A stretch of 64,000 nt of DNA, from the IMG/VR virus record IMGVR_UViG_3300020391_000005, positions 20,833 to 84,832 of that record; one strand, written 5' to 3'. Every line of letters begins with the position of its first letter. Positions within the stretch are counted from its first letter, which is position 1. Both the position numbers and the translations under genes were made by a program. This DNA is from a virus. Below the pieces are notes generated by a model that was given only the letters and a program-made list of their open reading frames with translations, ran no database searches and was not told where the DNA came from. Positions 3 to 37,389 of this stretch are shown here, one piece after another.

Positions 3-3000
3 TATTTAGACTTAGATTCTGATCAAATTTTTCCTTTTACTCTAGTATCTTCATCAGTTGGAACAGATTTTAGTATTTTTAAGCAAAATCTCACTATTGC
101 AAACCAGCACCTGCCACTAAGTATAACTGGTGAAGCATCTTTAAGAGGTCCATTCGCAGAAACACACGTTGGTGGTATGCCACATCAAAAAACAGAAATA
201 AGCCAGTCAAATAGGCCAGAGGCATATGCAATTTCTGCAGATTCTAGCACCTTAACTATGACACAGGTACCTATTGCTAATCCTAAGTCAATGTTTTTTA
301 GACATCGAAGCGCCACAAGTTTTTCGACTATTTCAAACATAAGGCACACTACCGCTTCGTTTTTCTTAGGAAATTACAGTAACAATTACGAGATTGTTCA
401 AACTGCCGGCAGATTTAACAACAATAGATTTTTTGTAGATCAAGAAGGTTCATTTGTTACAGACGCGCCTGTCGCGTCTCAATATATATCTGGTGTTATT
501 GATTATGCTCGACCAACTAGAACTAGAACAACTCATATCTTTGTCAATAAATTTGGAGCCCCAGGTGGACCAGAGTCTATTTCAGATATTGGCTTAGATC
601 GCGCTTCGGGAGAATTTTCAGTTTATAACTCTTTAAATTATAGAAATCCTGTTGTCAGAGACGTTGTAGATATACTAGCTTCAGAACACACAGAACAATT
701 TGGGTTTAGAGCAGAGCATACAGCCGAAGACGAAGCAAAAGCTACTGCAACAATAGAATTTGTATCCGGTGCTTTACCTCAAAATGATGCTAAATTTGTA
801 ATAACATCAGCACCATCTCTTAGTCTGGATGTTGAGGCACTATCTGTAACATATACATTTAAAAATAGTAGCCCAACAGCATCAAACCAAGAGTTTTCCG
901 GAACTAATCATCAATTGGCAGCGACTAATTTAGCAAATTTAATAACTTCAGTTAATGGTCATCTGGATAGAATAACTGTTAGTAATGATCATGATGGAAA
1001 AATTACATTAACTCAGCACTTTCCTGGTGCTGCAGGTAATGTAGCTATAGTCTCTAATGCAAATAATGTAAACATATCTGGATTTAATAGTGGTAAATCA
1101 ATATTGGGGTCAACTCACAAAACAAATAGAAATCCACAAAGATTTACTGGTTCTTTAGGAAGAGAATTTAATCGAGACAACTTTTTTGTTCAACACCCAA
1201 TTCCACAATCAGAATATCAATATTCTTGGATAACTGCGTCTGTTAACGATAGTGTATATGATTTTTTAAATCGAAATGAAAACATGGGATATGTTCACAA
1301 CTTCGGAATAAAAACATCTAAAATTACTGATACATTTAACGATAACACTACTAGCAAAGCGCCGTCTGTATTCACAACAAATCAGTCTGACGAAAGTAAA
1401 ATAATAACAACAACAACATTTGTAACGGGTGTTTTTGGATCGGATGATTCAGAGTCTGGCCCCACTGACAACCCGGAGGAATTTGGAAAATTTGTTTCCT
1501 CCATGAAGATTAGAAATAATCGCGCAATAGTCGGCAATCCCAATGATGATTTTACTGCTTTTTTTGGCTTCAAGGCTAGAGGAAAAGTATTTACCTATGT
1601 ATCAGGTAGTCCATGGTCATCTATGGCAATACTAACATCATCACAATCTTATAGTATGTTAGGGACTAGTAATTCAGATAAATTTGGATCCTCTGTACAA
1701 CTTTCAAATAATTTCGCGTTTGTTGGAGCACCAGAAAATGATGCACATGGCACCACCAGTGCTGGCGCCATATACATATATTCTGCTTCCGGTGGGACTT
1801 GGAACAATTATCAATTTATCACAGCTTCCACCATCGCCGCCTCCGGAAAATTTGGACAAGAGTATATATCTGCTACTGACGATAAGATGATTACAATTGG
1901 AAAACAGCGTACAGATAATTTATATGGTCAAGTATATGTATTTGACAGGACTGGATCACACTGGGATGAAACACAGGTTATAAATCTTTCATCTAGTCAA
2001 GTTAGACCTACTGCGGCATCTTTCAACGACACGCATCTTTTTGTAAATGGAAAAGATTTAACTGACGAAGAAGGTGATACTTATAGGGTTTATATATATG
2101 CTTCATCATCAGGTGCTGGATATTCTCTAAATCAAACAATAAATAGCAGCGCAAGAGTTATTCCAGCTTGTACTAACACACATTTAGCTGTTGCTCAAGG
2201 TGTGGATAATCTATTTGATACAACTGCATCTGTGGGGGTTTATACGTACAATGGTTCATCGTGGACAATACAGCAAACTGTAACAGGTAGTGATACTGTT
2301 CCGGGAGATGGATTTGTGGCACCGTATCAAACAGATACTGGTCTGCCTCCTTCCTCTCCTACAATCGCAATAAGTGGTAATGTTTTGGTTGTTGGGTCTT
2401 GGATAGACGATATATCTTTAGGTCCAAAAAATTCAACAGAAGCTAAAAATAGTAATTACGGAAGTGTTTATTTGTTTGGCCTACATTCAGATTCTATCTG
2501 GCGACAGGAAAGAAAGTTACAGTTTAATAATTTTACCAATTTTGCAAATGCTAAATCTTTTGGCAGCTCTGTTGATATTTCTTCAAATTATATTGCCGCA
2601 GGTACCTCAAGAGCACACTTAGAAATTAGTAGTGATAATCAAATATCTCATTTTGCTATTTTATCATATGTAACCTCATCTACAGAACAAAGTAGATTAG
2701 ATGAAGGTCCAATAGTCAAAGAGTTATCAACTGATTCAACCAAAAAAATATTAGCTCTTGTGGGTGATAAAGACGTTCCGATGGAAGTGGATCAGATACC
2801 AGATATTTATAAAAACTCACTCGATATTGAACACAGATTTGTATCTAGAGTTATAAATACGAAATCTGAATTCGTAAATATATCATTTGACTATATCAGA
2901 GGATCTTCAAATAGTAACGATTTATCTTACAAATATGGCTTAACGGCTGCACCTAGGGAAAATGATTACTTAGTAGTGCAGTATAAGATCGGTTCTGGTA

Positions 3001-6000
3001 ATTACCAGACTCTTGAAAATATTGCAGGCGGTGCAATATCAGGCTCTACAGATCAAAATAATTTCAGCAGAAAAGTTTATTCGATTCAAAATACAGAAAA
3101 AGATAAAATTACAGTTCGTTTAGTCGCAGGCACTTCAACCACTGGTACTGATGCCAATTGGGGTATAGATAATTTTATACATGAAAAAGCTGCTTATTCT
3201 GTAAAACCATCTAATCAAATTGGCTTTACAAGAGATCTTAGATTTGATAGAACAAGCACAGAATTAGATATAAATTGTGCAGAGCTGAATGTGTTCAACA
3301 CACAAGATATTGGTTCGGCAGGAGAAGGTTTTCAAACCTTAAATACCAGACAGGTTCAATCACCTCATTTAGCTTTTTCTGGCTCAGATGGTACCGACGA
3401 TCCTTTTTCTGTGGCGGCTTGGATTAAGCCTAATATTGTAGATCATTCATCTGTAGAAAGTTCGGTATCTGGCAGTGCAATTGTTACCAATGAGGGGAAC
3501 TATTCTATTCATTATGACTATCAGGGAAAAATAACTTTTAAACTTTTAGGAGATACAACTCAAAAAAAGGTAAATTTTATAAGTACAGTTTTTTATTCAG
3601 ATAAAACACCATTTTTAGCTGTTCAGACAGCAAATAAAGTTTTATCTTCTGGTGATTGGAAAATGGTGACCTGCACATATGATGGATCAAAAGACGCTTC
3701 CGGTTTAAGCATATACGTTAATGGGGTCAAGCAGGCAGTTGAAGTACGAAAAGCTGGTTCATATCAGGGAATGATCGGAGTAGACAACGGAACAGATGCA
3801 AAACTTGGAGCAGGCCTTGTCAACATCGGCTATCACCAGTATATACATGAAACTAATTTTGGATCTGGTTTTCCAGTAGATGATACTGAAAGATACCTTT
3901 CAGATTTCAATATAAGATCTTTGCTGGTACATAATGAAAAACTTTCTCAAGAAAAAGTAACTGAGCTTTACAATCTTAGAAATATAAAGCCATTTGAAAA
4001 TAATGCTAAGGGAGTTTATATACCATTTGAAAATTTTTCATCTTACAGTAATGTTGTCGCACACTGGAGATTTTCGAATCCAACTACAATAACAACAGGT
4101 AGTCAAACATACATAGCGTATGTTGATAAAAAGAATTCTATTGCTTTATTGCATGCAACTAGAACATTGAGAAATGCTTCAGCATCTAATGCTCCCGGTT
4201 TTCGATTCGCAAATGCATTTGGTAAATCTCCAGAGGTATCAAACAAATTTGCTAAATTTGAAACAGAAAGAAATTTAGTGAATGAAATCTCTTCATCTAT
4301 GTCAGACACTAGTGATACATTTCAGTATTTAGGATTAACAATAGGAGAAAATAGTTACCCTTCTTGGAAGCAAATAAGAGCAGGTGAGACACCAATTGGC
4401 AGATATCAAAAATCTAAAAATATAATAACAATATCAACAAGAGATACTGAAGTTTTTCCTAGTCCTATAGTAGATTATAAATATGATATCAATAAAGACC
4501 TTGCAAATCTCCCGCTTGAGTCAACTAGGACTAGTGCCAGAGAAGTGTCTAGTTTTAATGAAATATTAACAACTAATAGATTTAAACCTATAACTATAAC
4601 TTTTCACAGTGAAATACCCACAGAGAGAAATATAAGAGAGGAGATAGATCAAAAAACTCAAGAAAATTTGTGGATCCAAGATTTAACATCTTTAATGTCA
4701 TTTAGTCAAAATTTCTCTGCAAAAGATTCTAGAATAATATCTATAAAATCAACTCTTCAAAATGATTTAACTTCTTTTTCTAATAAGTCATTAACAGATA
4801 AATTAAAAATCAATGATTACAAGCATAATAAATTTAGTGATCCTGAAACCGGCACCTTTTCTAGATTGTCAAGTATCGCAGGATCATTCGAAAGTGTTTT
4901 TGGTGTAGAAATTAACTATGTAGAAACTTTATATCCTAAAGAAGTAAATACGTTTACTGAAAACGCCCGCAGAAGAACTTTATTTGATTTTTTTGGATGG
5001 AGAACATTAAGAAGTGATCGATCTTTAATTCTAACAGGATCAAATGTATATGGTAATTTTATCACTAGATTTGGAGATAATATAGCATTCCCTGAAATAA
5101 GCATAGATAAAAATAATTTTAAAAATACAAATAGCAGTTTTGTTGATGTAGTTGATTTTGAATCTAAGTTTAAGCCTTTAACGTATTCCCATATAACATC
5201 TTCACGATGGCCTTTAGATTCTAGATCAGATTTTACAAAAAAGCCATTAGATATTTCTGTTTCATATTTTAATAAGGGTGATAAGTTTTATAATTCTAAG
5301 CAATCAGGTAGAGATGGTTCTGGTGTATTCCAAAATGATTATAGTATTTTTGGATTAGGTTACAATGGCGTACACGGCACGCCACCTGTTGCTCTAATAT
5401 ATAATAGGCGTATACCACAGGTATCAGGGTCTAGTGTGTATTTATCGGGAGAATCTAGATGGCAAGCAGCAGAACAATCAAACTATGCACCATTTGGAAA
5501 TAGCTATTTGGATCACATAGATAACTTATCTCCACTGGCTCAAGATCACTCATTAGTGCCAGAATATAAGGTGTCTGATTTTGTAGAAGATATAGTGAAT
5601 CAATCAGAAGGTGATTATACAAAAGTTAGTGAAAAGGTAAATTATTTATCAGTAACTGGTGCCGTATATCACACTTCGTCTCAGGAACTATTAGTTGGAT
5701 CTAAATTTTTTAAAACATATGGAACAACTGATTTCATGAAATACTTTGGACTAGTTTCAGAGATGGTGGAAGACAATAATATTGGCTCTGCTTCGCGAAT
5801 AACATTAAGGTGCAAAGCAGCACTAAAATTTACTCCATATAGAGGATTTTACCCTGCAGAAAGAGTGCTACAAATAGGAGAGCTTTTTTCTAGAGGATAT
5901 ATGCCAGATTTTAGTTTTGATGATATTAGAGACACAACACCCGGTAGTGCAGATTTGAAGCAAGTTTCAGATCCTACAAAATTATTAGAAAAGAAAATAA

Positions 6001-8825
6001 GAGCAAATTTACAGCAAACTATAAAGCCTTTCATGGCACCTGGTGTTTTAATGAATTCTATAAAAAGTGGAATTGCTGTTGATTATCCGATTTTTGGATC
6101 TGATTCAAATGATACTGCACTAAATAATTTTAATACAGCCATAAAACAAACAACCACTTCAAAAACCTCTTTTGATAGTAGTTTAAACAATTTAACCATG
6201 TTTACAGGTTCAATTATTAACTCAACTCATGGCATTGGTGGCGTACCTAGACTTAGTGGTTCTGTGACAAGAAGAATTACCTTTGATGACCTACTTGACC
6301 CACAGCGAGTTATTGGAACAAAAATTTATGATAATGAGCCTCATCAGTCTGCAAGCATATATTATGGTGATGGAGCATTAACAAAAGTGTTTGATTATCC
6401 TTTTACTTTTGGAAGGTTGGATGATACTAACAATAAGCAAAAGATATTTGCAGACGACTTTGTGCTGAAAAAATCATTAAACGATACATTAACACCGTAC
6501 AAAATGGCCATCAATAACTTTTGTGCTGAAACTGTAAACTTCTTTTTAGAAGGAGGTAAATTATCAAGTTTTGAATCAGATCAGGTTGTGTCGCCATTTT
6601 TATCTGCTAGCGCTAACTATAAAATGAGAATAACTTTTAAAAATAGTAATTTAAAAATGTATGACAGACATTCAGCCTTCGGACCGCCTGTAGACGAAGG
6701 TGCAGGTCTGACAAAGACAAGGATTACTGGATCTCTTACAACCGCACCTGGGGCTGGCTCTACCGCGGATTTTGGAGATACGCGACCTGCAGGTTTTCTT
6801 GTGGTATCATCGGATTTAACTGGCTCGACAGATGCTAAACTACATGGATTCACAATGACCACACCAGCATCAAACACTGTTTCAGTTAAAGTGTTCAAGT
6901 CAGGATCTTACATGCCTTCATCTAGTGCAGGTGAATACCTTTACATATCATCTGGGTCAGAGGGATTTCAAACATCATCATATGATGTATCTTCTTTTGG
7001 TGATGTTTACGCAAATGGTACGAGTTCATACATTGACCTTGCAAGTATAGAAAGTAAGCAAACCGGAACTGCTGCCAGGGGCCTAGCCTTTAACAGACTG
7101 CTTGAGGTCGCAATTAATCATCATCGATGGCATAGTGGTTCTAAAATAGAAGCTGGTTTCGTAGATGGTAATAATGTTAGGGTTAGGCAGATTTTAACCG
7201 GCACCGCCGGTGATACAACTATAACTCAACATGGTGGCACTAGTTCATTTGGTGTTGCAAGCCCAATGGCAAATTATTTTTCATCATTTCCCTCTTCTTT
7301 TTCATCGGGAATAAACCAGGCGACAACTTTAACAAATGTTACAACCAGCACCATAACTGAAAACGATTCGCATGAATATGCACCATTTGTGCCGCCTTTC
7401 TTAGACAAAGGATCTGACCCATATGTAGAAATAAATTTTACACCAGATAAATCAGAGGAATATACATTGAGCAAAATATTTGACGGTGCACAGTATACCT
7501 ATAGAAACTTTAAAGATACACCTTCAAATCACAATGTAAATACAAACTTTAAAGAAGCTATGAACCTGTCAGCTTCATTTGATTTATCTAATTTTTCCGT
7601 ATATAAAGAAGATGAATCACAGGCTGGTGTAACAACACTTGAACAGAGAAAAAGGTGGGTGATACAAACTAAGTGGGAAACACCAATACTTAATTTTATA
7701 AATGCATCTTCAAGTGCACTAAACTTAAGCAGTAGCACCGTTGATCAAGTTGTAGGATCACCATGGCAAGATAGAACATGGGATAGGTATCTAACAAAAT
7801 CTGTTATTAGTACACCAACCCCGTATATAACTTCTTCAACAGGTATGTGGCATCAATATGGATCAAATCTGGAAAGTGATCAGGAAGGTTACATAATATC
7901 AATAGATAAAGTACCAGGAGTATCTGACAATCATCAACTTGCTAGAATCTTAGGATTCATTCCAGAATCTATGGAGCCAGTTCAAATCAGACCAGGTAAA
8001 ATAGCTGAAAGAAAAGAAATATCAGAAGCGGTTGTCGCAATACCTTTTTATTATAAGAGCGAACTAATACAAGGATCGTCACAAGCGCCGAAACTTTTTA
8101 CTATGAAAGAGTCAAATCTTCAAGCAGCAATTGATTTAAATTCTGGCAAAAAAAGATCATTCGAGGAAGTAGTTCTTGGTCGCAGTAAAGACGATCCAAC
8201 TTCTGGGTATAACATTGAATTAGAAAAGTATTTAAAATTTTACAATACACCTGGACAAGCACCAGAAGAAGTTTTAGCATATCAATTGAGAATGATGGAA
8301 AAATATGTTTTTCCTCCTCAATTTGATTTTTTAAATTATCCTGAAATGTTGCAAAAGCCAATGATGTATATATTTCAGTTTAATGCTGAACTCACTAAGC
8401 AAGACCTAACTAATATTTGGCAAAATTTAGCTCCTCAAACAGCTAGATCTGCAGCAAGGGCTAGAAACTCAGGAATAGATACTAATATAGAAAAATTTGG
8501 AGTTAGAGAAGACGTTCAATATGTATCTCATTTGTTTAATCAAAGAGATATACCGGTTGAAGAACGAGAGCAATTTTTAGAAAAAAATGTTAGATGGGTT
8601 ATATTCAAAGTCAAGCAAAGAGCGGAAGCTGATTTGTCAAAGATAAAGATTAATTCACTTCCAGGCTCCAGAAGAAACCTTGTTGTTGATCCATCAGTGT
8701 CATCCCTAAAGCCATCTGATTATTTAGTAGGAAAGAAGTATAGCTTTAACTGGCCATATGATTACTTTTCTTTAGTAGAACTAATTAAACTTGAGGCAAA
8801 AGTTGATTTCTTGCCTTTTGGATAA
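3..8825 (+). CDS. Giant virion structural protein (baseplate/tail-associated) with FG-GAP-like beta-propeller repeats and a LamG/concanavalin A-like domain; 5' truncated
   Basis: Frame is open from position 3 (YLDLDSDQIFPF...) into the ATG at 177, so the true start is left of the window. FGSSVQLSNNFAFVGAP / GAIYIY / FGSSVDISSNYIAAG repeats; LamG-type FSVAAWIKP...WKMVTCTYDGS...IYVNG; S/T/G-rich. Confidence 0.7.
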   Translation, partial: YLDLDSDQIFPFTLVSSSVGTDFSIFKQNLTIANQHLPLSITGEASLRGPFAETHVGGMPHQKTEISQSNRPEAYAISADSSTLTMTQVPIANPKSMFFRHRSATSFSTISNIRHTTASFFLGNYSNNYEIVQTAGRFNNNRFFVDQEGSFVTDAPVASQYISGVIDYARPTRTRTTHIFVNKFGAPGGPESISDIGLDRASGEFSVYNSLNYRNPVVRDVVDILASEHTEQFGFRAEHTAEDEAKATATIEFVSGALPQNDAKFVITSAPSLSLDVEALSVTYTFKNSSPTASNQEFSGTNHQLAATNLANLITSVNGHLDRITVSNDHDGKITLTQHFPGAAGNVAIVSNANNVNISGFNSGKSILGSTHKTNRNPQRFTGSLGREFNRDNFFVQHPIPQSEYQYSWITASVNDSVYDFLNRNENMGYVHNFGIKTSKITDTFNDNTTSKAPSVFTTNQSDESKIITTTTFVTGVFGSDDSESGPTDNPEEFGKFVSSMKIRNNRAIVGNPNDDFTAFFGFKARGKVFTYVSGSPWSSMAILTSSQSYSMLGTSNSDKFGSSVQLSNNFAFVGAPENDAHGTTSAGAIYIYSASGGTWNNYQFITASTIAASGKFGQEYISATDDKMITIGKQRTDNLYGQVYVFDRTGSHWDETQVINLSSSQVRPTAASFNDTHLFVNGKDLTDEEGDTYRVYIYASSSGAGYSLNQTINSSARVIPACTNTHLAVAQGVDNLFDTTASVGVYTYNGSSWTIQQTVTGSDTVPGDGFVAPYQTDTGLPPSSPTIAISGNVLVVGSWIDDISLGPKNSTEAKNSNYGSVYLFGLHSDSIWRQERKLQFNNFTNFANAKSFGSSVDISSNYIAAGTSRAHLEISSDNQISHFAILSYVTSSTEQSRLDEGPIVKELSTDSTKKILALVGDKDVPMEVDQIPDIYKNSLDIEHRFVSRVINTKSEFVNISFDYIRGSSNSNDLSYKYGLTAAPRENDYLVVQYKIGSGNYQTLENIAGGAISGSTDQNNFSRKVYSIQNTEKDKITVRLVAGTSTTGTDANWGIDNFIHEKAAYSVKPSNQIGFTRDLRFDRTSTELDINCAELNVFNTQDIGSAGEGFQTLNTRQVQSPHLAFSGSDGTDDPFSVAAWIKPNIVDHSSVESSVSGSAIVTNEGNYSIHYDYQGKITFKLLGDTTQKKVNFISTVFYSDKTPFLAVQTANKVLSSGDWKMVTCTYDGSKDASGLSIYVNGVKQAVEVRKAGSYQGMIGVDNGTDAKLGAGLVNIGYHQYIHETNFGSGFPVDDTERYLSDFNIRSLLVHNEKLSQEKVTELYNLRNIKPFENNAKGVYIPFENFSSYSNVVAHWRFSNPTTITTGSQTYIAYVDKKNSIALLHATRTLRNASASNAPGFRFANAFGKSPEVSNKFAKFETERNLVNEISSSMSDTSDTFQYLGLTIGENSYPSWKQIRAGETPIGRYQKSKNIITISTRDTEVFPSPIVDYKYDINKDLANLPLESTRTSAREVSSFNEILTTNRFKPITITFHSEIPTERNIREEIDQKTQENLWIQDLTSLMSFSQNFSAKDSRIISIKSTLQNDLTSFSNKSLTDKLKINDYKHNKFSDPETGTFSRLSSIAGSFESVFGVEINYVETLYPKEVNTFTENARRRTLFDFFGWRTLRSDRSLILTGSNVYGNFITRFGDNIAFPEISIDKNNFKNTNSSFVDVVDFESKFKPLTYSHITSSRWPLDSRSDFTKKPLDISVSYFNKGDKFYNSKQSGRDGSGVFQNDYSIFGLGYNGVHGTPPVALIYNRRIPQVSGSSVYLSGESRWQAAEQSNYAPFGNSYLDHIDNLSPLAQDHSLVPEYKVSDFVEDIVNQSEGDYTKVSEKVNYLSVTGAVYHTSSQELLVGSKFFKTYGTTDFMKYFGLVSEMVEDNNIGSASRITLRCKAALKFTPYRGFYPAERVLQIGELFSRGYMPDFSFDDIRDTTPGSADLKQVSDPTKLLEKKIRANLQQTIKPFMAPGVLMNSIKSGIAVDYPIFGSDSNDTALNNFNTAIKQTTTSKTSFDSSLNNLTMFTGSIINSTHGIGGVPRLSGSVTRRITFDDLLDPQRVIGTKIYDNEPHQSASIYYGDGALTKVFDYPFTFGRLDDTNNKQKIFADDFVLKKSLNDTLTPYKMAINNFCAETVNFFLEGGKLSSFESDQVVSPFLSASANYKMRITFKNSNLKMYDRHSAFGPPVDEGAGLTKTRITGSLTTAPGAGSTADFGDTRPAGFLVVSSDLTGSTDAKLHGFTMTTPASNTVSVKVFKSGSYMPSSSAGEYLYISSGSEGFQTSSYDVSSFGDVYANGTSSYIDLASIESKQTGTAARGLAFNRLLEVAINHHRWHSGSKIEAGFVDGNNVRVRQILTGTAGDTTITQHGGTSSFGVASPMANYFSSFPSSFSSGINQATTLTNVTTSTITENDSHEYAPFVPPFLDKGSDPYVEINFTPDKSEEYTLSKIFDGAQYTYRNFKDTPSNHNVNTNFKEAMNLSASFDLSNFSVYKEDESQAGVTTLEQRKRWVIQTKWETPILNFINASSSALNLSSSTVDQVVGSPWQDRTWDRYLTKSVISTPTPYITSSTGMWHQYGSNLESDQEGYIISIDKVPGVSDNHQLARILGFIPESMEPVQIRPGKIAERKEISEAVVAIPFYYKSELIQGSSQAPKLFTMKESNLQAAIDLNSGKKRSFEEVVLGRSKDDPTSGYNIELEKYLKFYNTPGQAPEEVLAYQLRMMEKYVFPPQFDFLNYPEMLQKPMMYIFQFNAELTKQDLTNIWQNLAPQTARSAARARNSGIDTNIEKFGVREDVQYVSHLFNQRDIPVEEREQFLEKNVRWVIFKVKQRAEADLSKIKINSLPGSRRNLVVDPSVSSLKPSDYLVGKKYSFNWPYDYFSLVELIKLEAKVDFLPFG

Positions 8826-32594: not shown

Positions 32595-32831
32595 ATGAGT
32601 AGAGGTAAACCATGTCACGTTGAAATAGTGATACATGATCAGAATCAAGTAGAGAGGATGATCAAAAAATTTACAAGAAAATGTAAAAAGCAAGGTCTTT
32701 TTGATGAATTAAAAAACAGGAGATATTTTAAAAAGAAATCTCTTAAAATGAAAGAAAAAAGGGAAAATAAAAAGAGGTTGTCCCAAAAATCAACCCAAAA
32801 ATATAAAGATAAGTTTAATAAATTAGATTAG
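32595..32831 (+). CDS. rpsU: Ribosomal protein bS21, phage-encoded
   Basis: 78 aa, very basic; VEI...VERMIKKFTRKCKKQGLFDELKNRRYFKKKS fits the bS21 pattern (E.ALRRFKR...G...E.R.R.FYEKPS); AGGAG RBS. Confidence 0.85.
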   Translation: MSRGKPCHVEIVIHDQNQVERMIKKFTRKCKKQGLFDELKNRRYFKKKSLKMKEKRENKKRLSQKSTQKYKDKFNKLD

Positions 32832-34612: not shown

Positions 34613-36421
34613 ATGTCTATTTTACAAAAATTAACAGAAGGCGTTCAGAACCGTAATATGGAAGCTGAAGGAAACGCTCTTCTTCAAAAGTGGGAAGCAA
34701 CTGGATTGCTTGAAGGTCTTAATGAAGGCCACAACAAGCAGGGAATGGCAGTTCTTCTCGAAAACCAGGCAAAAGAACTTCTTCGCGAAGCATCCGCAAT
34801 GGGTAGCGGCGATGTTGAAGGTTTTGCGTCTGTAGCATTCCCAATCGTTCGCCGTGTTTTCGGCGGCTTGATTGCAAATGATCTTGTATCGGTACAGCCA
34901 ATGAGCTTACCATCAGGACTTATTTTCTTTCTTGACTTTCTTAAGAGCCCAGACGTCCGTCCTAACCAGCCTGGTTCCGACCAGTCTGTATATGGCGGAA
35001 ACGTCATCGGTAGCCAAATAACCGGTGGTGTCGATCTCGGTAGCGAGACAAAAGTTGAACCAGGTCAGTTCTATGATCTTGATACTGGCTTTTCTCACGC
35101 CACAGGTTCAGCTGTTGCTGCAAAAGACGCCAACAGCTACTCTGGAGGTCTTCAAGTAGATACAGTTCAAGTACAAAACAAGCTTGTTTCTGAACTTACA
35201 GAAGCAGAAAAGAAGCTAATTCGTTTTGATGCGGACTTGCTTGAAAACAATTCTGCAGATAAGATTGTAATCCTTGACTGTGATATTACAAAGCTTGATA
35301 ACTTTAACAGAGATGCCGCAACTGCAGTTCATGCAGGTTCTGGTACGTCTATTAAGTTTGTTGATGACTCGGTTGGCGATAACGTTATCACCGACGCCGG
35401 CGCAAATGTACGTCAAGTTCGAAGGCTTACTCAAGTTGTTGATAATGCAACGTTACGTATTGTACTCGTTGATCTCAGCGGTGCAGACATTGGACCAAGC
35501 GCCGGACAAACATGGGCCGCAGACGATGCCGTTGGTATCTTGGCATATCCATTTACCGATGATCGTGAAGCTGTAACGAACGGTCTTGGTGCAATCAACC
35601 TTGATACTACCGCAACAGGCTTTGGCATACCGCTTGAAAAGGCGCAAGACATGGCTGAAATCGATATTAAGGTCGATTCAATCGCCGTGACCGCACAGAC
35701 CAAGAAGTTGAAGGCTAAGTGGACTCCTGAGTTGGGACAAGACCTTAATGCTTATCACAATTTGGATGCTGAGGTTGAGCTTACAGGTATTCTTTCAGAG
35801 CAAATCGCTCTAGAAATTGATCGTGAGCTTCTTGGTGATCTTGTTCAGGGTGCAAAGGCTGGTACACGTTACTGGAGCCGCGCCCCGGGTCTTTTCGTTG
35901 ACTCACAAGGTAGAGAACTTGGTGCTTCTTCGGCAGCTCCTGACTTCACCGGTACAGTTAGCGAGTGGTATGAGACTCTCATTGAAACAATCAATGACGT
36001 AAGCGCTCAGATCCACAGAAAGACACTTCGTGGCGGTGCAAACTTTGTTGTTTGCTCTCCAGAGATTGCTAACATCCTTGAGTTCACAAGTGGTTTCCGC
36101 GCAAGCGTTACTGCTGATCAGGACCGAGGCACCATCGGCGCTATCCGCGCTGGTAGCTTGAGTAAGAAGTTTGACGTTTACGTTGATCCTTACTTCTTGC
36201 GTAACGTTATCCTCGTAGGTCGTAAGGGTAGCTCGTTCCTTGAGAGCGGCTTTGTATATGCTCCTTATGTACCATTGCAGGTAACACCTACCATTTTCGG
36301 TACGGAAGACTTCGTACCACGTAAGGGCGTTATGACCCGTTACGCTAAGAAGATGGTACGACCTGATATGTACGGTCTTGTTATTTGTCGTGGTCTCCTC
36401 GGTGAGGAAGGCTCTAAGTAA
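34613..36421 (+). CDS. Major capsid protein (T4 gp23-like)
   Basis: AVLLENQ, FPIVRRVFGGLIANDLVSVQPMSLPSGLIFFLDF, KLKAKWTPELGQDLNAYH, EIDRE, YAPYVPL, PRKGVMTRYA; AAGGAGGTGA RBS. Confidence 0.96.
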   Translation: MSILQKLTEGVQNRNMEAEGNALLQKWEATGLLEGLNEGHNKQGMAVLLENQAKELLREASAMGSGDVEGFASVAFPIVRRVFGGLIANDLVSVQPMSLPSGLIFFLDFLKSPDVRPNQPGSDQSVYGGNVIGSQITGGVDLGSETKVEPGQFYDLDTGFSHATGSAVAAKDANSYSGGLQVDTVQVQNKLVSELTEAEKKLIRFDADLLENNSADKIVILDCDITKLDNFNRDAATAVHAGSGTSIKFVDDSVGDNVITDAGANVRQVRRLTQVVDNATLRIVLVDLSGADIGPSAGQTWAADDAVGILAYPFTDDREAVTNGLGAINLDTTATGFGIPLEKAQDMAEIDIKVDSIAVTAQTKKLKAKWTPELGQDLNAYHNLDAEVELTGILSEQIALEIDRELLGDLVQGAKAGTRYWSRAPGLFVDSQGRELGASSAAPDFTGTVSEWYETLIETINDVSAQIHRKTLRGGANFVVCSPEIANILEFTSGFRASVTADQDRGTIGAIRAGSLSKKFDVYVDPYFLRNVILVGRKGSSFLESGFVYAPYVPLQVTPTIFGTEDFVPRKGVMTRYAKKMVRPDMYGLVICRGLLGEEGSK

Positions 36422-36447
36422 TAAAACTTAGCAACAGCCAAAAGATT

Positions 36448-36485
36448 AAGCCTCATCATTAATTTGGTGGGGCTTTTCTTTTTTC
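36448..36485 (+). terminator. Intrinsic terminator after the capsid gene
   Basis: AAGCCTCATCA-ttaatt-TGGTGGGGCTT followed by TTCTTTTTTC. Confidence 0.75.
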
Positions 36486-36511
36486 TGAAAGCTATTTATT
36501 ATAACTTGGAA

Positions 36512-36617
36512 TAACCTCCTGGGTCGTAAAGCCACTGGCCCTTGAAGAGATACAACAGAGGTGGCTGGTTGTGTTTCGTGGAAGTTCGAGGTTAACGTTA
36601 ACCACATAATAAGGAGG
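36512..36617 (+). ncRNA. Candidate structured RNA (three-way junction, kissing loops, anti-SD) in the 5' leader of 36627..37211
   Basis: P1 TAACCTC/GAGGTTA; P2 GGGTCG/TGGCCC; P3 GAGATACAAC/GTTGTGTTTC; loops AGCCAC and GTGGCT are complementary; folded by hand. Confidence 0.6.
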
Positions 36618-36626
36618 AAATAAATT

Positions 36627-37211
36627 ATGGGTAGTAGAAGATTAGGTAGAAGGAGATTATTCTCTTTAGATAAAGCAGGTCAGGAAGTAGACCTCGGTGC
36701 CGGAGAAGGAATTAAAGACGCTATTGTGTCAACAACACAAAAAAGAGAAGGTCATCAAATAATCACAGAAATTGCATTAGACCTTGGTACGTCGAAGGCT
36801 GAAATAAAAACCTCAGGTACCGGAGGCAACGGCGCGAGGAAGCCTTTCGGTGTTGCTGACAAGGAGGCTAGTATAGGACAGTTAACAGTAGCAAAGGTTG
36901 GGGTAGTCAATGAAGTGAGAGTTCAGGTCTTAGAAGCCATAGTCGGTGGTACCACCACATTTGATCTTGAGAGCGCCAACGATGGAGTTGGTAAATCAGG
37001 CGCTGTCGGGGCCCTAGGTACGGGCAACACTGCTCAACTCGACGCTATAACAAACACTGTCGGTGTAGACATATCAAAATTGTTTGACGCTAACGAGCTA
37101 GCAGATAAATTTCTTTATGTTTGCCAGGGTGAAGACGACAACGCTGCAGCACTCACAGCTGGAAAGCTTCTTATTACGATCTATGGGGCTGCGGTCCCAG
37201 CGGATCTGTAA
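36627..37211 (+). CDS. Putative capsid accessory/decoration protein
   Basis: 194 aa, Arg-rich N-terminal arm, beta-rich, ends LTAGKLLITIYG; follows the capsid gene; AAGGAGG RBS. Confidence 0.55.
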   Translation: MGSRRLGRRRLFSLDKAGQEVDLGAGEGIKDAIVSTTQKREGHQIITEIALDLGTSKAEIKTSGTGGNGARKPFGVADKEASIGQLTVAKVGVVNEVRVQVLEAIVGGTTTFDLESANDGVGKSGAVGALGTGNTAQLDAITNTVGVDISKLFDANELADKFLYVCQGEDDNAAALTAGKLLITIYGAAVPADL

Positions 37212-37224
37212 GGAGGAGTGAATC

Positions 37225-37335
37225 ATGTCTAGAGCAAGAAGAGCGAAAGCGAGAAAATCTACCTCTAAAAAGGCACCACCAAAAAAGGTGAAGAAGGCCG
37301 AAAAGCCAAAGGCTGAAGAGGTCAAAGAAGAGTAA
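37225..37335 (+). CDS. 36-aa basic K/A/R-rich peptide (not in ORF track): MSRARRAKARKSTSKKAPPKKVKKAEKPKAEEVKEE
   Basis: Hand-translated; AAGGAGGAG RBS; ends just before a terminator. Confidence 0.65.
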   Translation: MSRARRAKARKSTSKKAPPKKVKKAEKPKAEEVKEE

Positions 37336-37344
37336 AACCTTCAC

Positions 37345-37373
37345 GCCCCCCTGCAAAGGGGGGCTTTTTATTT
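37345..37373 (+). terminator. Intrinsic terminator
   Basis: GCCCCCCT-GCAA-AGGGGGGC, 8-bp stem with GNRA loop, then TTTTTATTT. Confidence 0.88.
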
Positions 37374-37389
37374 CACGAAAGGAAAAACA

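What the first reader, a model, noticed from the sequence alone, without database searches (positions are those of the whole stretch)
36491..36629. Candidate new structured RNA after the capsid gene: three-way junction, kissing loops and anti-SD switch
Seen: after the capsid terminator and a late-type motif (36491) there is a ~125 nt leader that is GC-richer than other intergenic DNA. It folds into P1 TAACCTC(36512-18)/GAGGTTA(36588-94), P2 GGGTCG(36521-26)/TGGCCC(36536-41) and P3 GAGATACAAC(36547-56)/GTTGTGTTTC(36568-77). The G-U pairs favour RNA-level structure. The P2 loop AGCCAC(36530-35) is complementary to the P3 loop GTGGCT(36561-66). CCTCCT(36515-20) is the exact complement of the SD AGGAGG(36612-17), and the palindrome GGTTAACGTTAACC(36590-603) competes for the 3' strand of P1, giving two exclusive folds (SD free or blocked). 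Known: three-way junctions with loop-loop pairing occur in purine riboswitches and phi29 pRNA. Inference: a phage translational switch (ligand- or capsid-protein-responsive) or a pRNA-like head RNA.
Basis: partly seen in the sequence, partly recalled or inferred. Interest (0 to 1): 0.85.

Follow-up and report, generated by a model that had tools for sequence, protein, structure and literature searches.

The report
Kissing-loop leader RNA after capsid gene
Uncultured marine T4-like phages keep a folded RNA of about 110 bases in front of the gene after the capsid gene; two of its hairpin loops have co-evolved to pair, and it can probably hide or expose that gene's ribosome-binding site.

Summary
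All the motifs sit at the stated coordinates.

The stretch belongs to a conserved RNA family. I found 126 distinct copies in IMG/VR marine phage contigs, with one copy in this genome.

In 100 non-redundant copies, 96.4% of cells are paired, against 85% after shuffling and 28-52% when partners are slid.
- P2 and P3 covary strongly.
- The loop-loop pairing was not part of the search model, yet it covaries: pair 49-85 is CG 89 / GC 11, and pair 50-84 is AU 86 / GC 12 / CG 2, with none unpaired.

The conserved P1 lies 10 nt upstream.

A UCUCC stretch can pair with the ribosome-binding site (SD) in 99 of 100 copies.

Two folds are nearly equal in energy: a three-way junction with the SD free, and a cloverleaf with the SD blocked. 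The difference is -0.5 ± 2.5 kcal/mol. The junction fold forms first in 96 of 100 copies.

The best reading is a translational control leader that works like the MS2 maturation-gene leader. The trigger is unknown.

No Rfam match was found. This scan noted the same family twice before on other genomes. A 2023 bulk catalogue may list it, but I could not check that.

The parts
36448..36485 (+). Intrinsic terminator of the capsid gene (stem-loop plus T run)
   Evidence: Terminator-like site at 36448-36475 with a T-rich tail. Equivalent hairpins precede the element in relatives.
36492..36498 (+). Promoter-like motif CTATTTA; the transcript start is inferred about 4-7 nt downstream
   Evidence: CTA-N-TTA is present in 100 of 100 copies, but the seed sequences were selected for this motif. 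Of 14 + strand copies in the window, at least 8 lie 37-135 nt upstream of a start codon. The motif is not enriched overall: 22 found against 20.6 expected. The start site itself is inferred, not shown.
36502..36512 (+). P1, 5' strand (the family-conserved closing helix of the three-way junction)
   Evidence: RNAalifold on the MAFFT alignment. Pair counts for columns 14-20 with 113-119 give 95.6% paired. Window pairing comes from the constrained fold.
36515..36520 (+). Anti-SD (upstream complementary sequence) in junction J1/2
   Evidence: The J1/2 duplex with the SD region averages -9.95 kcal/mol, against -5.3 for shuffled J1/2. GGAG lies wholly inside the duplex in 99 of 100 copies.
36521..36541 (+). 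P2 hairpin (stem 36521-25 with 36537-41, 11-nt loop)
   Evidence: 99.3% of cells paired; 3 of 4 pairs show changes on both sides.
36530..36536 (+). L2 strand of the loop-loop (kissing) helix
   Evidence: Columns 46-52 with 82-88 are 99.6% paired. Two pairs show compensatory double changes, and none of the 100 copies breaks either pair. This helix was not in the covariance model.
36547..36577 (+). P3 hairpin (stem 36547-56 with 36568-77)
   Evidence: 6 of 7 modelled pairs show changes on both sides. RNAalifold predicts the same helix.
36560..36566 (+). L3 strand of the loop-loop helix
   Evidence: as for L2.
36584..36594 (+). P1, 3' strand; overlaps the 5' arm of P4
   Evidence: G117, U118 and U119 pair either with C16, A15 and R14, or with Y144, A142 and A141.
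36590..36603 (+). P4, a perfect 14-nt palindrome (anti-P1 hairpin or duplex-forming element)
   Evidence: 97 of 100 copies carry a perfect palindrome of at least 10 nt, and its centre is always self-complementary. It occurs once per genome in 4 of 4 complete relatives. The isolated hairpin has a free energy near 0; the self-duplex is about -15 kcal/mol.
36612..36617 (+). Shine-Dalgarno sequence of the downstream gene
36627..37211 (+). Regulated gene: 194-aa protein of unknown function with a basic N-terminus
   Evidence: ORF list. No Pfam, PHROG or PDB match. 53 unnamed homologues.
37345..37374 (+). Terminator that ends the transcription unit
   Evidence: Terminator-like site at 37345-37364 with a T tail.

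Best explanation
This is a cis-acting 5' leader RNA that sets how much of the gene after the major capsid gene is translated. Transcription probably starts just after the CTATTTA motif, so the RNA begins with P1.

Fold 1 (ribosome-binding site free). As the RNA is made, P1, P2 and P3 form a three-way junction, and the loops of P2 and P3 pair over 7 bases. At this stage the ribosome-binding site has not yet been transcribed, or is free.

Fold 2 (ribosome-binding site blocked). Once the SD emerges, a second fold of about equal stability becomes possible. The conserved UCUCC stretch between P1 and P2 pairs with the SD. This closes a cloverleaf of P2, P3 and P4. P4 takes over the last bases of P1.

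The balance, or the speed of exchange, between the two folds would set translation.

What is shown and what is inferred:
- Shown by comparison: the helices, the loop-loop pairing, the conserved anti-SD, and the mutually exclusive partners of three bases.
- Inferred: the transcription start, that the two folds exchange in vivo, and what drives the exchange.

My preferred driver is a timing (kinetic) mechanism as in the MS2 maturation gene. It could also be modulated by a protein. That this is a real structured RNA I put at about 0.95. The confidence below is for the translational-control reading.
For: Family size: 126 distinct copies among 161 nhmmer hits in 344 sources. The covariance-model search found one hit in each of 100 non-redundant sources.

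Structure:
- RNAalifold on a plain MAFFT alignment finds P1, P2 and P3 on its own; 8 of 20 pairs show compensatory changes.
- 96.4% of cells are paired, against 85.1% shuffled (0 of 500 shuffles reach it) and 28-52% for slid partners.
- The kissing helix was not in the model. Pair 49-85 is CG 89 / GC 11, and pair 50-84 is AU 86 / GC 12 / CG 2, with 0 unpaired.

Anti-SD: J1/2 against the SD region gives a median of 8 pairs and a mean of -9.95 kcal/mol, against -5.3 for shuffled J1/2 (z = -2.6). The other junctions give -0.2 and -1.5 kcal/mol.

Two folds:
- The SD-free fold averages -30.7 kcal/mol and the SD-blocked fold -31.2. The difference is -0.5 ± 2.5 in 97 copies.
- When the transcript is folded up to just before the SD, the minimum-energy fold has P1 in 96 of 100 copies and P4 in 0 of 100. 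With the full leader, the SD pairs with J1/2 in 60 of 100 and P1 stays in 40 of 100.
- G117, U118 and U119 have two conserved, mutually exclusive partners.

Context:
- No terminator-like site lies between the RNA and its start codon.
- Relatives without the element keep the same motif and SD in a 60-75-nt leader.
- No conserved ORF lies in the leader.
Against: - No compensatory double change links the anti-SD to the SD. The SD is constrained by the ribosome anyway, and a pyrimidine run pairs easily with a purine run.
- One copy (L009) has a central mismatch, seen by eye.
- P1 and the anti-SD:SD helix cross each other. They could coexist as a pseudoknot, which nearest-neighbour folding cannot score, so the two-state picture may be too simple.
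- P4 alone is not a stable hairpin (free energy near 0). Its always self-complementary centre is not explained by this model.
- There is no expression evidence. Metatranscriptome contigs cover 36389-36539 and 36595-36745, but they cannot show a start site and may be DNA carry-over.
- The pair counts for nested helices come from an alignment fitted to the model.
Confidence: 0.6

Rival explanations
1. Autogenous protein operator. The kissing-loop domain is the binding site for a phage protein, most simply the gene's own product through its basic N-terminus. Free protein would lock the SD-blocked fold and so couple synthesis to assembly.
For: - All 12 capsid-linked loci that carry the RNA encode a downstream protein starting MG-x-RR or MGKRLGRQR. 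None of the 63 evaluable loci without the RNA starts MG(N/S)RR.
- In 100 copies, R4 is present in 98.
- The leader and the first ~18 codons stay together while the protein body is swapped among at least three unrelated types.
- Loop and junction bases that no helix explains are nearly invariant: G42, G76, A81 and G104.
Against: - The link between N-terminus and RNA may be shared ancestry or a recombination boundary.
- Relatives without the RNA also have basic N-termini (MGTKR...).
- No RNA-binding domain was found.
Confidence: 0.25
2. Small-molecule riboswitch. The three-way junction with docked loops would be an aptamer, and P1, P4 and the anti-SD would be its expression platform.
For: - The architecture resembles purine-type aptamers: a three-way junction, loop-loop docking, and conserved junction bases.
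- P1 competes with a downstream helix.
Against: - The regulated gene is a virion-module protein with no metabolic link.
- The junction sequences vary between subgroups.
- There is no Rfam match.
- Relatives do without the element.
Confidence: 0.1
3. mRNA stability or processing element. A 5' end buried in P1 and a compact kissing-loop domain would protect the late mRNA from 5'-end-dependent decay, or mark a processing site. The SD would play no switching role.
For: - The inferred transcript start falls at the first base of P1.
- P1 forms in 96 of 100 prefix folds.
Against: This does not explain the conserved anti-SD, or the conserved competition between P1 and P4.
Confidence: 0.15
4. Self-associating RNA. 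L2 and L3 would pair between molecules, as in phi29 pRNA, and the palindromic P4 would form a symmetric duplex. The resulting dimers or rings would have a role in assembly or in sensing concentration.
For: - Covariation cannot tell pairing within a molecule from pairing between molecules.
- The P4 centre is self-complementary in all three variants (TGCA 78, TCGA 16, ACGT 3). A hairpin loop does not need this; a duplex does.
- The P4 hairpin has a free energy near 0, against about -15 kcal/mol for the self-duplex.
- P2 (4-5 pairs) and P3 (10-11 pairs) are unequal in length.
Against: - It is an mRNA leader, not a free RNA.
- The phage has a T4-type head module.
- No pRNA model matched.
- Two diverged copies lack P4 but keep the loops.
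Confidence: 0.08
5. DNA-level element. The conserved stretch, or at least the palindrome, would be a protein-binding site or a recombination module boundary, not an RNA structure.
For: - The palindrome is perfect and unique in each genome.
- Gene bodies downstream are swapped.
Against: - Compensatory changes occur in P2, P3 and the loops.
- The one-sided changes are G-U compatible on the + strand only: U-A to U-G in P1, and G-C 63 / G-U 36 at the outer P4 pair.
- The half-site spacing differs by 2 bp between palindrome classes.
Confidence: 0.05

Closest known systems
5' untranslated leader of the maturation (A) protein gene of Levivirus phages such as MS2 (review PMC4615214, passages read)
   Same: - An upstream complementary sequence pairs with the SD over a long distance and closes a cloverleaf of three arms.
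- A different structure forms first during synthesis and delays this inhibitory fold.
- It controls a virion protein gene of a phage.
   Different: - MS2 is an RNA genome end; this is an mRNA leader of a large DNA phage.
- MS2 has no loop-loop pairing and no palindrome.
- In MS2 the transient hairpin hides the upstream complementary sequence itself. Here P1 competes with P4 and crosses the SD helix.
- There is no sequence or model similarity.
Purine riboswitch aptamer (architecture recalled, not from a call)
   Same: A three-way junction whose two distal loops dock on each other. P1 is linked to an SD-sequestering platform.
   Different: - Here the loops form 7 standard pairs, and the arms are unequal in length.
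- No ligand is known, and the junction sequence is different.
- No Rfam model matched at gathering or relaxed thresholds.
phi29 packaging RNA (pRNA; PMC4201828, title and abstract seen in the listing)
   Same: A phage RNA with a three-way junction and two mutually complementary loops, next to head genes.
   Different: - pRNA is a free transcript whose loops pair between molecules on the portal of phi29-like phages.
- Here the RNA runs straight into an ORF in a T4-type phage, and no pRNA model matched.
T4 gene 32 autoregulatory leader pseudoknot (as described in PMC10690425, passage read)
   Same: A pseudoknotted 5' leader in a T4-type phage that is used for translational control of the downstream gene.
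   Different: - In T4 the effector is the gene's own single-strand-binding protein.
- Here no protein partner is shown, and both the gene and the RNA fold are unrelated.

Membership tests
Any Rfam 15 family | Covariance-model score at or above the family's gathering threshold | tested here: not met
   0 matches in the whole window and 0 in 18 homologous loci. With relaxed thresholds on 36400-36700, the best match scored 23.4 bits against a cut-off of 65 and lay on the terminator.
Levivirus maturation-gene leader (works-like test) | An upstream complementary sequence pairs with the SD and closes a multi-arm fold | tested here: met
   GGAG lies inside the J1/2 duplex in 99 of 100 copies. The SD pairs with J1/2 in 60 of 100 minimum-energy folds.
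Levivirus maturation-gene leader (works-like test) | A mutually exclusive structure forms first during synthesis | tested here: inconclusive
   Prefix folds contain P1 in 96 of 100 copies. This is equilibrium folding of prefixes, not kinetics, and P1 with the SD helix could form a pseudoknot.
Levivirus maturation-gene leader (membership) | Lies at the 5' end of a positive-strand RNA phage genome and is homologous in sequence | tested here: not met
   The host record is a DNA phage with Gp23-type capsid, T4-type portal and S77 protease.
phi29 pRNA | Free-standing small RNA with its own terminator | tested here: not met
   No terminator-like site lies between the RNA (ends 36603) and its start codon at 36627. 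The only + strand sites before the strong terminator at 37345 are the capsid terminator and a weak one at 36946 inside the ORF.
phi29 pRNA | Loops pair between molecules to form rings on the portal | not testable with these tools
   Covariation cannot distinguish pairing within a molecule from pairing between molecules.
Purine riboswitch | Conserved junction core and a match to the family model | tested here: not met
   No match.
Purine riboswitch | Ligand binding in the junction | not testable with these tools
   Needs probing or binding assays.
Catalogue of candidate structured RNAs from IMG/VR (PMC10690425) | Listed as one of the 8495 DNAVirus_X models | not testable with these tools
   The models are in supplementary files, which are closed. 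The main text names no such motif.

The most novel reading that the evidence does not exclude
The leader is a self-pairing RNA. Reciprocal L2-L3 kissing between two molecules, together with a symmetric duplex of the palindromic P4, would build a two-fold dimer or a larger assembly. Translation of the post-capsid gene, or a step in head assembly, would then depend on the concentration of the RNA itself. That would make it a small, mRNA-borne relative in kind of pRNA and of the RNA-only complexes reported for large phage-associated RNAs.
Probability: 0.08. Interest if true: 0.85.

Novelty: new variant of a known kind. Interest (0 to 1): 0.6.

Why it matters
- **A rare level of support.** This is a structured RNA from uncultured viruses in which a tertiary contact (loop-loop pairing) is backed by compensatory changes, not only the hairpins.
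- **Where it sits.** It lies in the head-gene module of ~185-195-kb marine T4-like phages that recur in ocean metagenomes. Near-identical DNA stood in runs of several marine studies.
- **What it would show if confirmed.** Large DNA phages would be using the folding-pathway logic known from the MS2 maturation gene to dose a virion protein.
- **Practical use.** It would give a compact, well-defined model for probing alternative folds and kissing-loop geometry.
- **An open lead.** The unexplained, always-perfect palindrome is a concrete, testable pointer to either RNA dimerisation or a protein partner.

Tried and rejected
- **Single-sequence folding.** Not significant on either strand (z = -1.19 and -1.79).
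- **Cultured phage records.** No DNA or protein match to the leader or to the 194-aa gene.
Rejected as a family feature, because relatives cannot form it.
- **An inner extension of P1 (columns 24-27 with 107-110).** Column make-up does not fit. A clear extra helix exists only in two diverged copies, L022 and L060, seen by eye.
- **Anti-SD and SD covariation.** I looked by eye and found no double changes, so no claim is made.
- **'Capsid cement' label from earlier notes.**
  - Pfam and PHROGs scans of 36 homologues found nothing.
  - Pfam scans of 9 proteins at the same genomic position found nothing.
  - The PDB profile search found nothing.
  - The Atlas gave only a sub-threshold lead of 0.77 to Phage_cement_2.
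  - I leave the function unknown.
- **Prokaryote genomes.** All 48 pattern matches were chance. The loci have 46-70% GC, and the three Rheinheimera matches lie in a conserved coding region.
- **Small ORF in the leader.** The median longest ATG-ORF is 22 aa, and 10 of 100 copies reach 30 aa. Rejected.
- **Metatranscriptome contigs.**
  - They gave no start site.
  - The parts of the stretch without cover mean nothing.
  - Runs with small shares were not used for habitat claims.
- **Literature.** Three searches found no description of this motif.
- **First broad pattern scan.** It was mostly chance matches.

Full report
**What is in the window**

The window is part of an 84.8-kb IMG/VR virus record, estimated 47% complete. 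It carries a T4-type head module:
- portal (PF07230);
- prohead protease (PF03420);
- a ribosomal protein bS21 gene;
- a Gp23-type major capsid gene at 34613-36421 (PF07068, E = 4.5e-73).

The capsid gene ends with a terminator-like hairpin and T run at 36448-36485. A CTATTTA motif follows at 36492. The next ORF starts at 36627 and encodes 194 aa with no Pfam, PHROG or PDB match. On the + strand the only terminator-like sites after the capsid terminator are a weak one at 36946 inside the ORF and a strong one at 37345. The finding is therefore the 5' leader of that ORF.

Folded alone, the stretch is not better than shuffles (z = -1.19).

**Relatives**

- The cultured-phage collection has no match to the leader or to the 194-aa protein.
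- The nearest cultured capsids are below 60% identity: Flavobacterium phage immuto 46% over 66% of the query, then Microcystis Mel-JY01 and Rhodothermus RM378.
- In IMG/VR, 597 of 599 candidate stretches encode capsid relatives, and the best 80 were kept.
- Three motif scans added more loci.
- A profile search of all 344 sources gave 161 hits, which are 126 distinct copies of the leader.
- The window's genome has one copy.
- Complete relatives are 185-195 kb, one with direct terminal repeats.
- I found no true copy in one genome per prokaryote species; the 48 pattern matches there were chance.

**Structure**

RNAalifold on a plain MAFFT alignment of 26 copies predicts P1, P2 and P3. Of its 20 pairs, 8 show compensatory changes.

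A covariance model built from that alignment found exactly one hit in each of 100 non-redundant sources. The window scored 92.5 bits.

On this 100-sequence alignment:
- 96.4% of cells are standard pairs, against 85.1% in shuffles (0 of 500 reach it) and 28-52% when partners are slid.
- P2 has 3 of 4 pairs with changes on both sides, and P3 has 6 of 7.

The loop-loop helix (7 pairs) was not in the model, so it is an independent test:
- Pair 49-85 is CG 89 / GC 11.
- Pair 50-84 is AU 86 / GC 12 / CG 2.
- None of the 100 copies is unpaired at either pair.
- At least three variant loop pairs exist besides the common one.

The nested-helix counts lean towards the model, because the alignment was fitted to it. 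and the pseudoknot do not share that bias.

No conserved ORF lies in the leader.

The conserved P1 pairs the bases just after the promoter-like motif with those just before the palindrome. In the window this is 36502-36512 with 36584-36594. Changes in P1 are mostly U-A to U-G. Those keep pairing only in + strand RNA.

**The switch**

- *Anti-SD.* The junction between P1 and P2 carries a conserved UCUCC. Its best duplex with the SD region has a median of 8 pairs and a mean of -9.95 kcal/mol, against -5.3 for shuffled junctions. It includes the whole GGAG in 99 of 100 copies. The other two junctions give -0.2 and -1.5 kcal/mol.
- *Equal energies.* Constrained folds give -30.7 kcal/mol for the junction fold (SD free) and -31.2 for the cloverleaf (SD paired, with P2 and P3 forced and P4 free to form). 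The difference is -0.5 ± 2.5 in 97 copies.
- *Order of folding.* Folding the RNA only up to the SD gives P1 in 96 of 100 copies and P4 in none. With the full leader, the SD is paired to the junction in 60 of 100.
- *Shared bases.* Three bases have two conserved partners. G117 pairs with C16 (CG 99) or with Y144 (GC 63, GU 36). U118 and U119 behave likewise.

This is the layout of the MS2 maturation-gene leader. There, an upstream complementary sequence closes a cloverleaf over the SD, and a transient structure delays it (PMC4615214, passages read). I took this comparison from two earlier reports of this scan and tested it.

The comparison has limits:
- P1 and the SD helix cross, and could coexist as a pseudoknot.
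- Prefix folding is not kinetics.
- No double change links the anti-SD and the SD.

**Promoter and leader length**

CTATTTA is not enriched in the window overall (22 found against 20.6 expected). However, at least 8 of its 14 + strand copies lie 37-135 nt upstream of start codons. The usual distance is 37-63 nt; here it is 135.

Relatives without the element keep the motif and the SD in leaders of 60-75 nt. The best model score among 68 such loci was 27.5 bits. The element therefore looks like an insertion of about 90 nt into an ordinary late leader. The transcript start is inferred, not shown.

Metatranscriptome contigs match 36389-36539 and 36595-36745 exactly, but cannot show a start and may be DNA.

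**The unexplained palindrome**

- 97 of 100 copies have a perfect palindrome of 10-16 nt.
- Its centre is TGCA in 78 copies, TCGA in 16 and ACGT in 3, so it is always self-complementary.
- It occurs once per genome in 4 of 4 complete relatives.
- As an isolated hairpin its free energy is near 0. As a self-duplex it is about -15 kcal/mol.

A hairpin loop has no need to be self-complementary. Either two RNAs pair here, or a symmetric protein reads it, or the DNA matters. Two diverged copies (L022 and L060) lack P4 but keep everything else.

**The gene**

- 53 homologues were found, none named.
- The Atlas shows only viral hypothetical clusters.
- Of 80 capsid-linked loci, 75 could be evaluated, and 12 carry the RNA. 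All 12 products start MG-x-RR or MGKRLGRQR. None of the other 63 starts MG(N/S)RR.
- The leader and about 18 codons are joined to at least three unrelated protein bodies. One locus without the RNA (L011) has a body like the window's.

This may point to a protein-RNA partnership, or only to a recombination boundary.

**Novelty**

- No Rfam match was found.
- Three literature searches found no description.
- PMC10690425 predicted 8495 candidate RNAs from IMG/VR intergenic regions (passages read).
- This scan reported the same family twice before on other genomes.

**Verdict**

This is a real, well-supported new RNA family that works by a known principle. Its trigger is unknown, and its palindrome is an unexplained feature.

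Noticed in passing
window 32595-32831 (+): A 78-aa ORF inside the head-gene module matches ribosomal protein bS21 (PF01165, E = 1.6e-9, 37.8 bits against a cut-off of 27). Late genes here have strong SD sites.
   Followed up: partly
window 15650, 20403, 25636, 33325, 36492, 40695, 41405, 44452 (+): CTATTTA(T/C) lies 37-135 nt upstream of at least 8 start codons on the + strand. It is a probable late promoter element that differs from the T4 late consensus. It is not enriched in the window overall.
   Followed up: partly
L009, L010, L031, L022, L026, L011 compared with window 36627-37211: The leader RNA and the first ~18 codons are conserved, but they are joined to at least three unrelated protein bodies (149-291 aa). 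L011 has a body like the window's protein, but it has a different N-terminus and no RNA. This looks like modular exchange at a fixed boundary.
   Followed up: partly
L022:4890-5017 and L060:2936-3065: A diverged form of the RNA (about 45 bits) lacks the P4 palindrome. It has an extra inner helix that extends P1, which differs by compensatory changes between the two copies, and a third kissing-loop variant.
   Followed up: partly
window 177-8825 (+): A 2882-aa ORF whose only Pfam match is one FG-GAP repeat. Its function was not examined.
   Followed up: no
window 37212-37389: The 178-nt gap after the 194-aa gene is 46% GC and ends in a strong terminator at 37345-37364.
   Followed up: no
window 36611, loose end in run X20: A metatranscriptome contig from a relative carries the GGTTACGTAACC form of the palindrome just before the SD. 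Locus L312 has the same variant.
   Followed up: no
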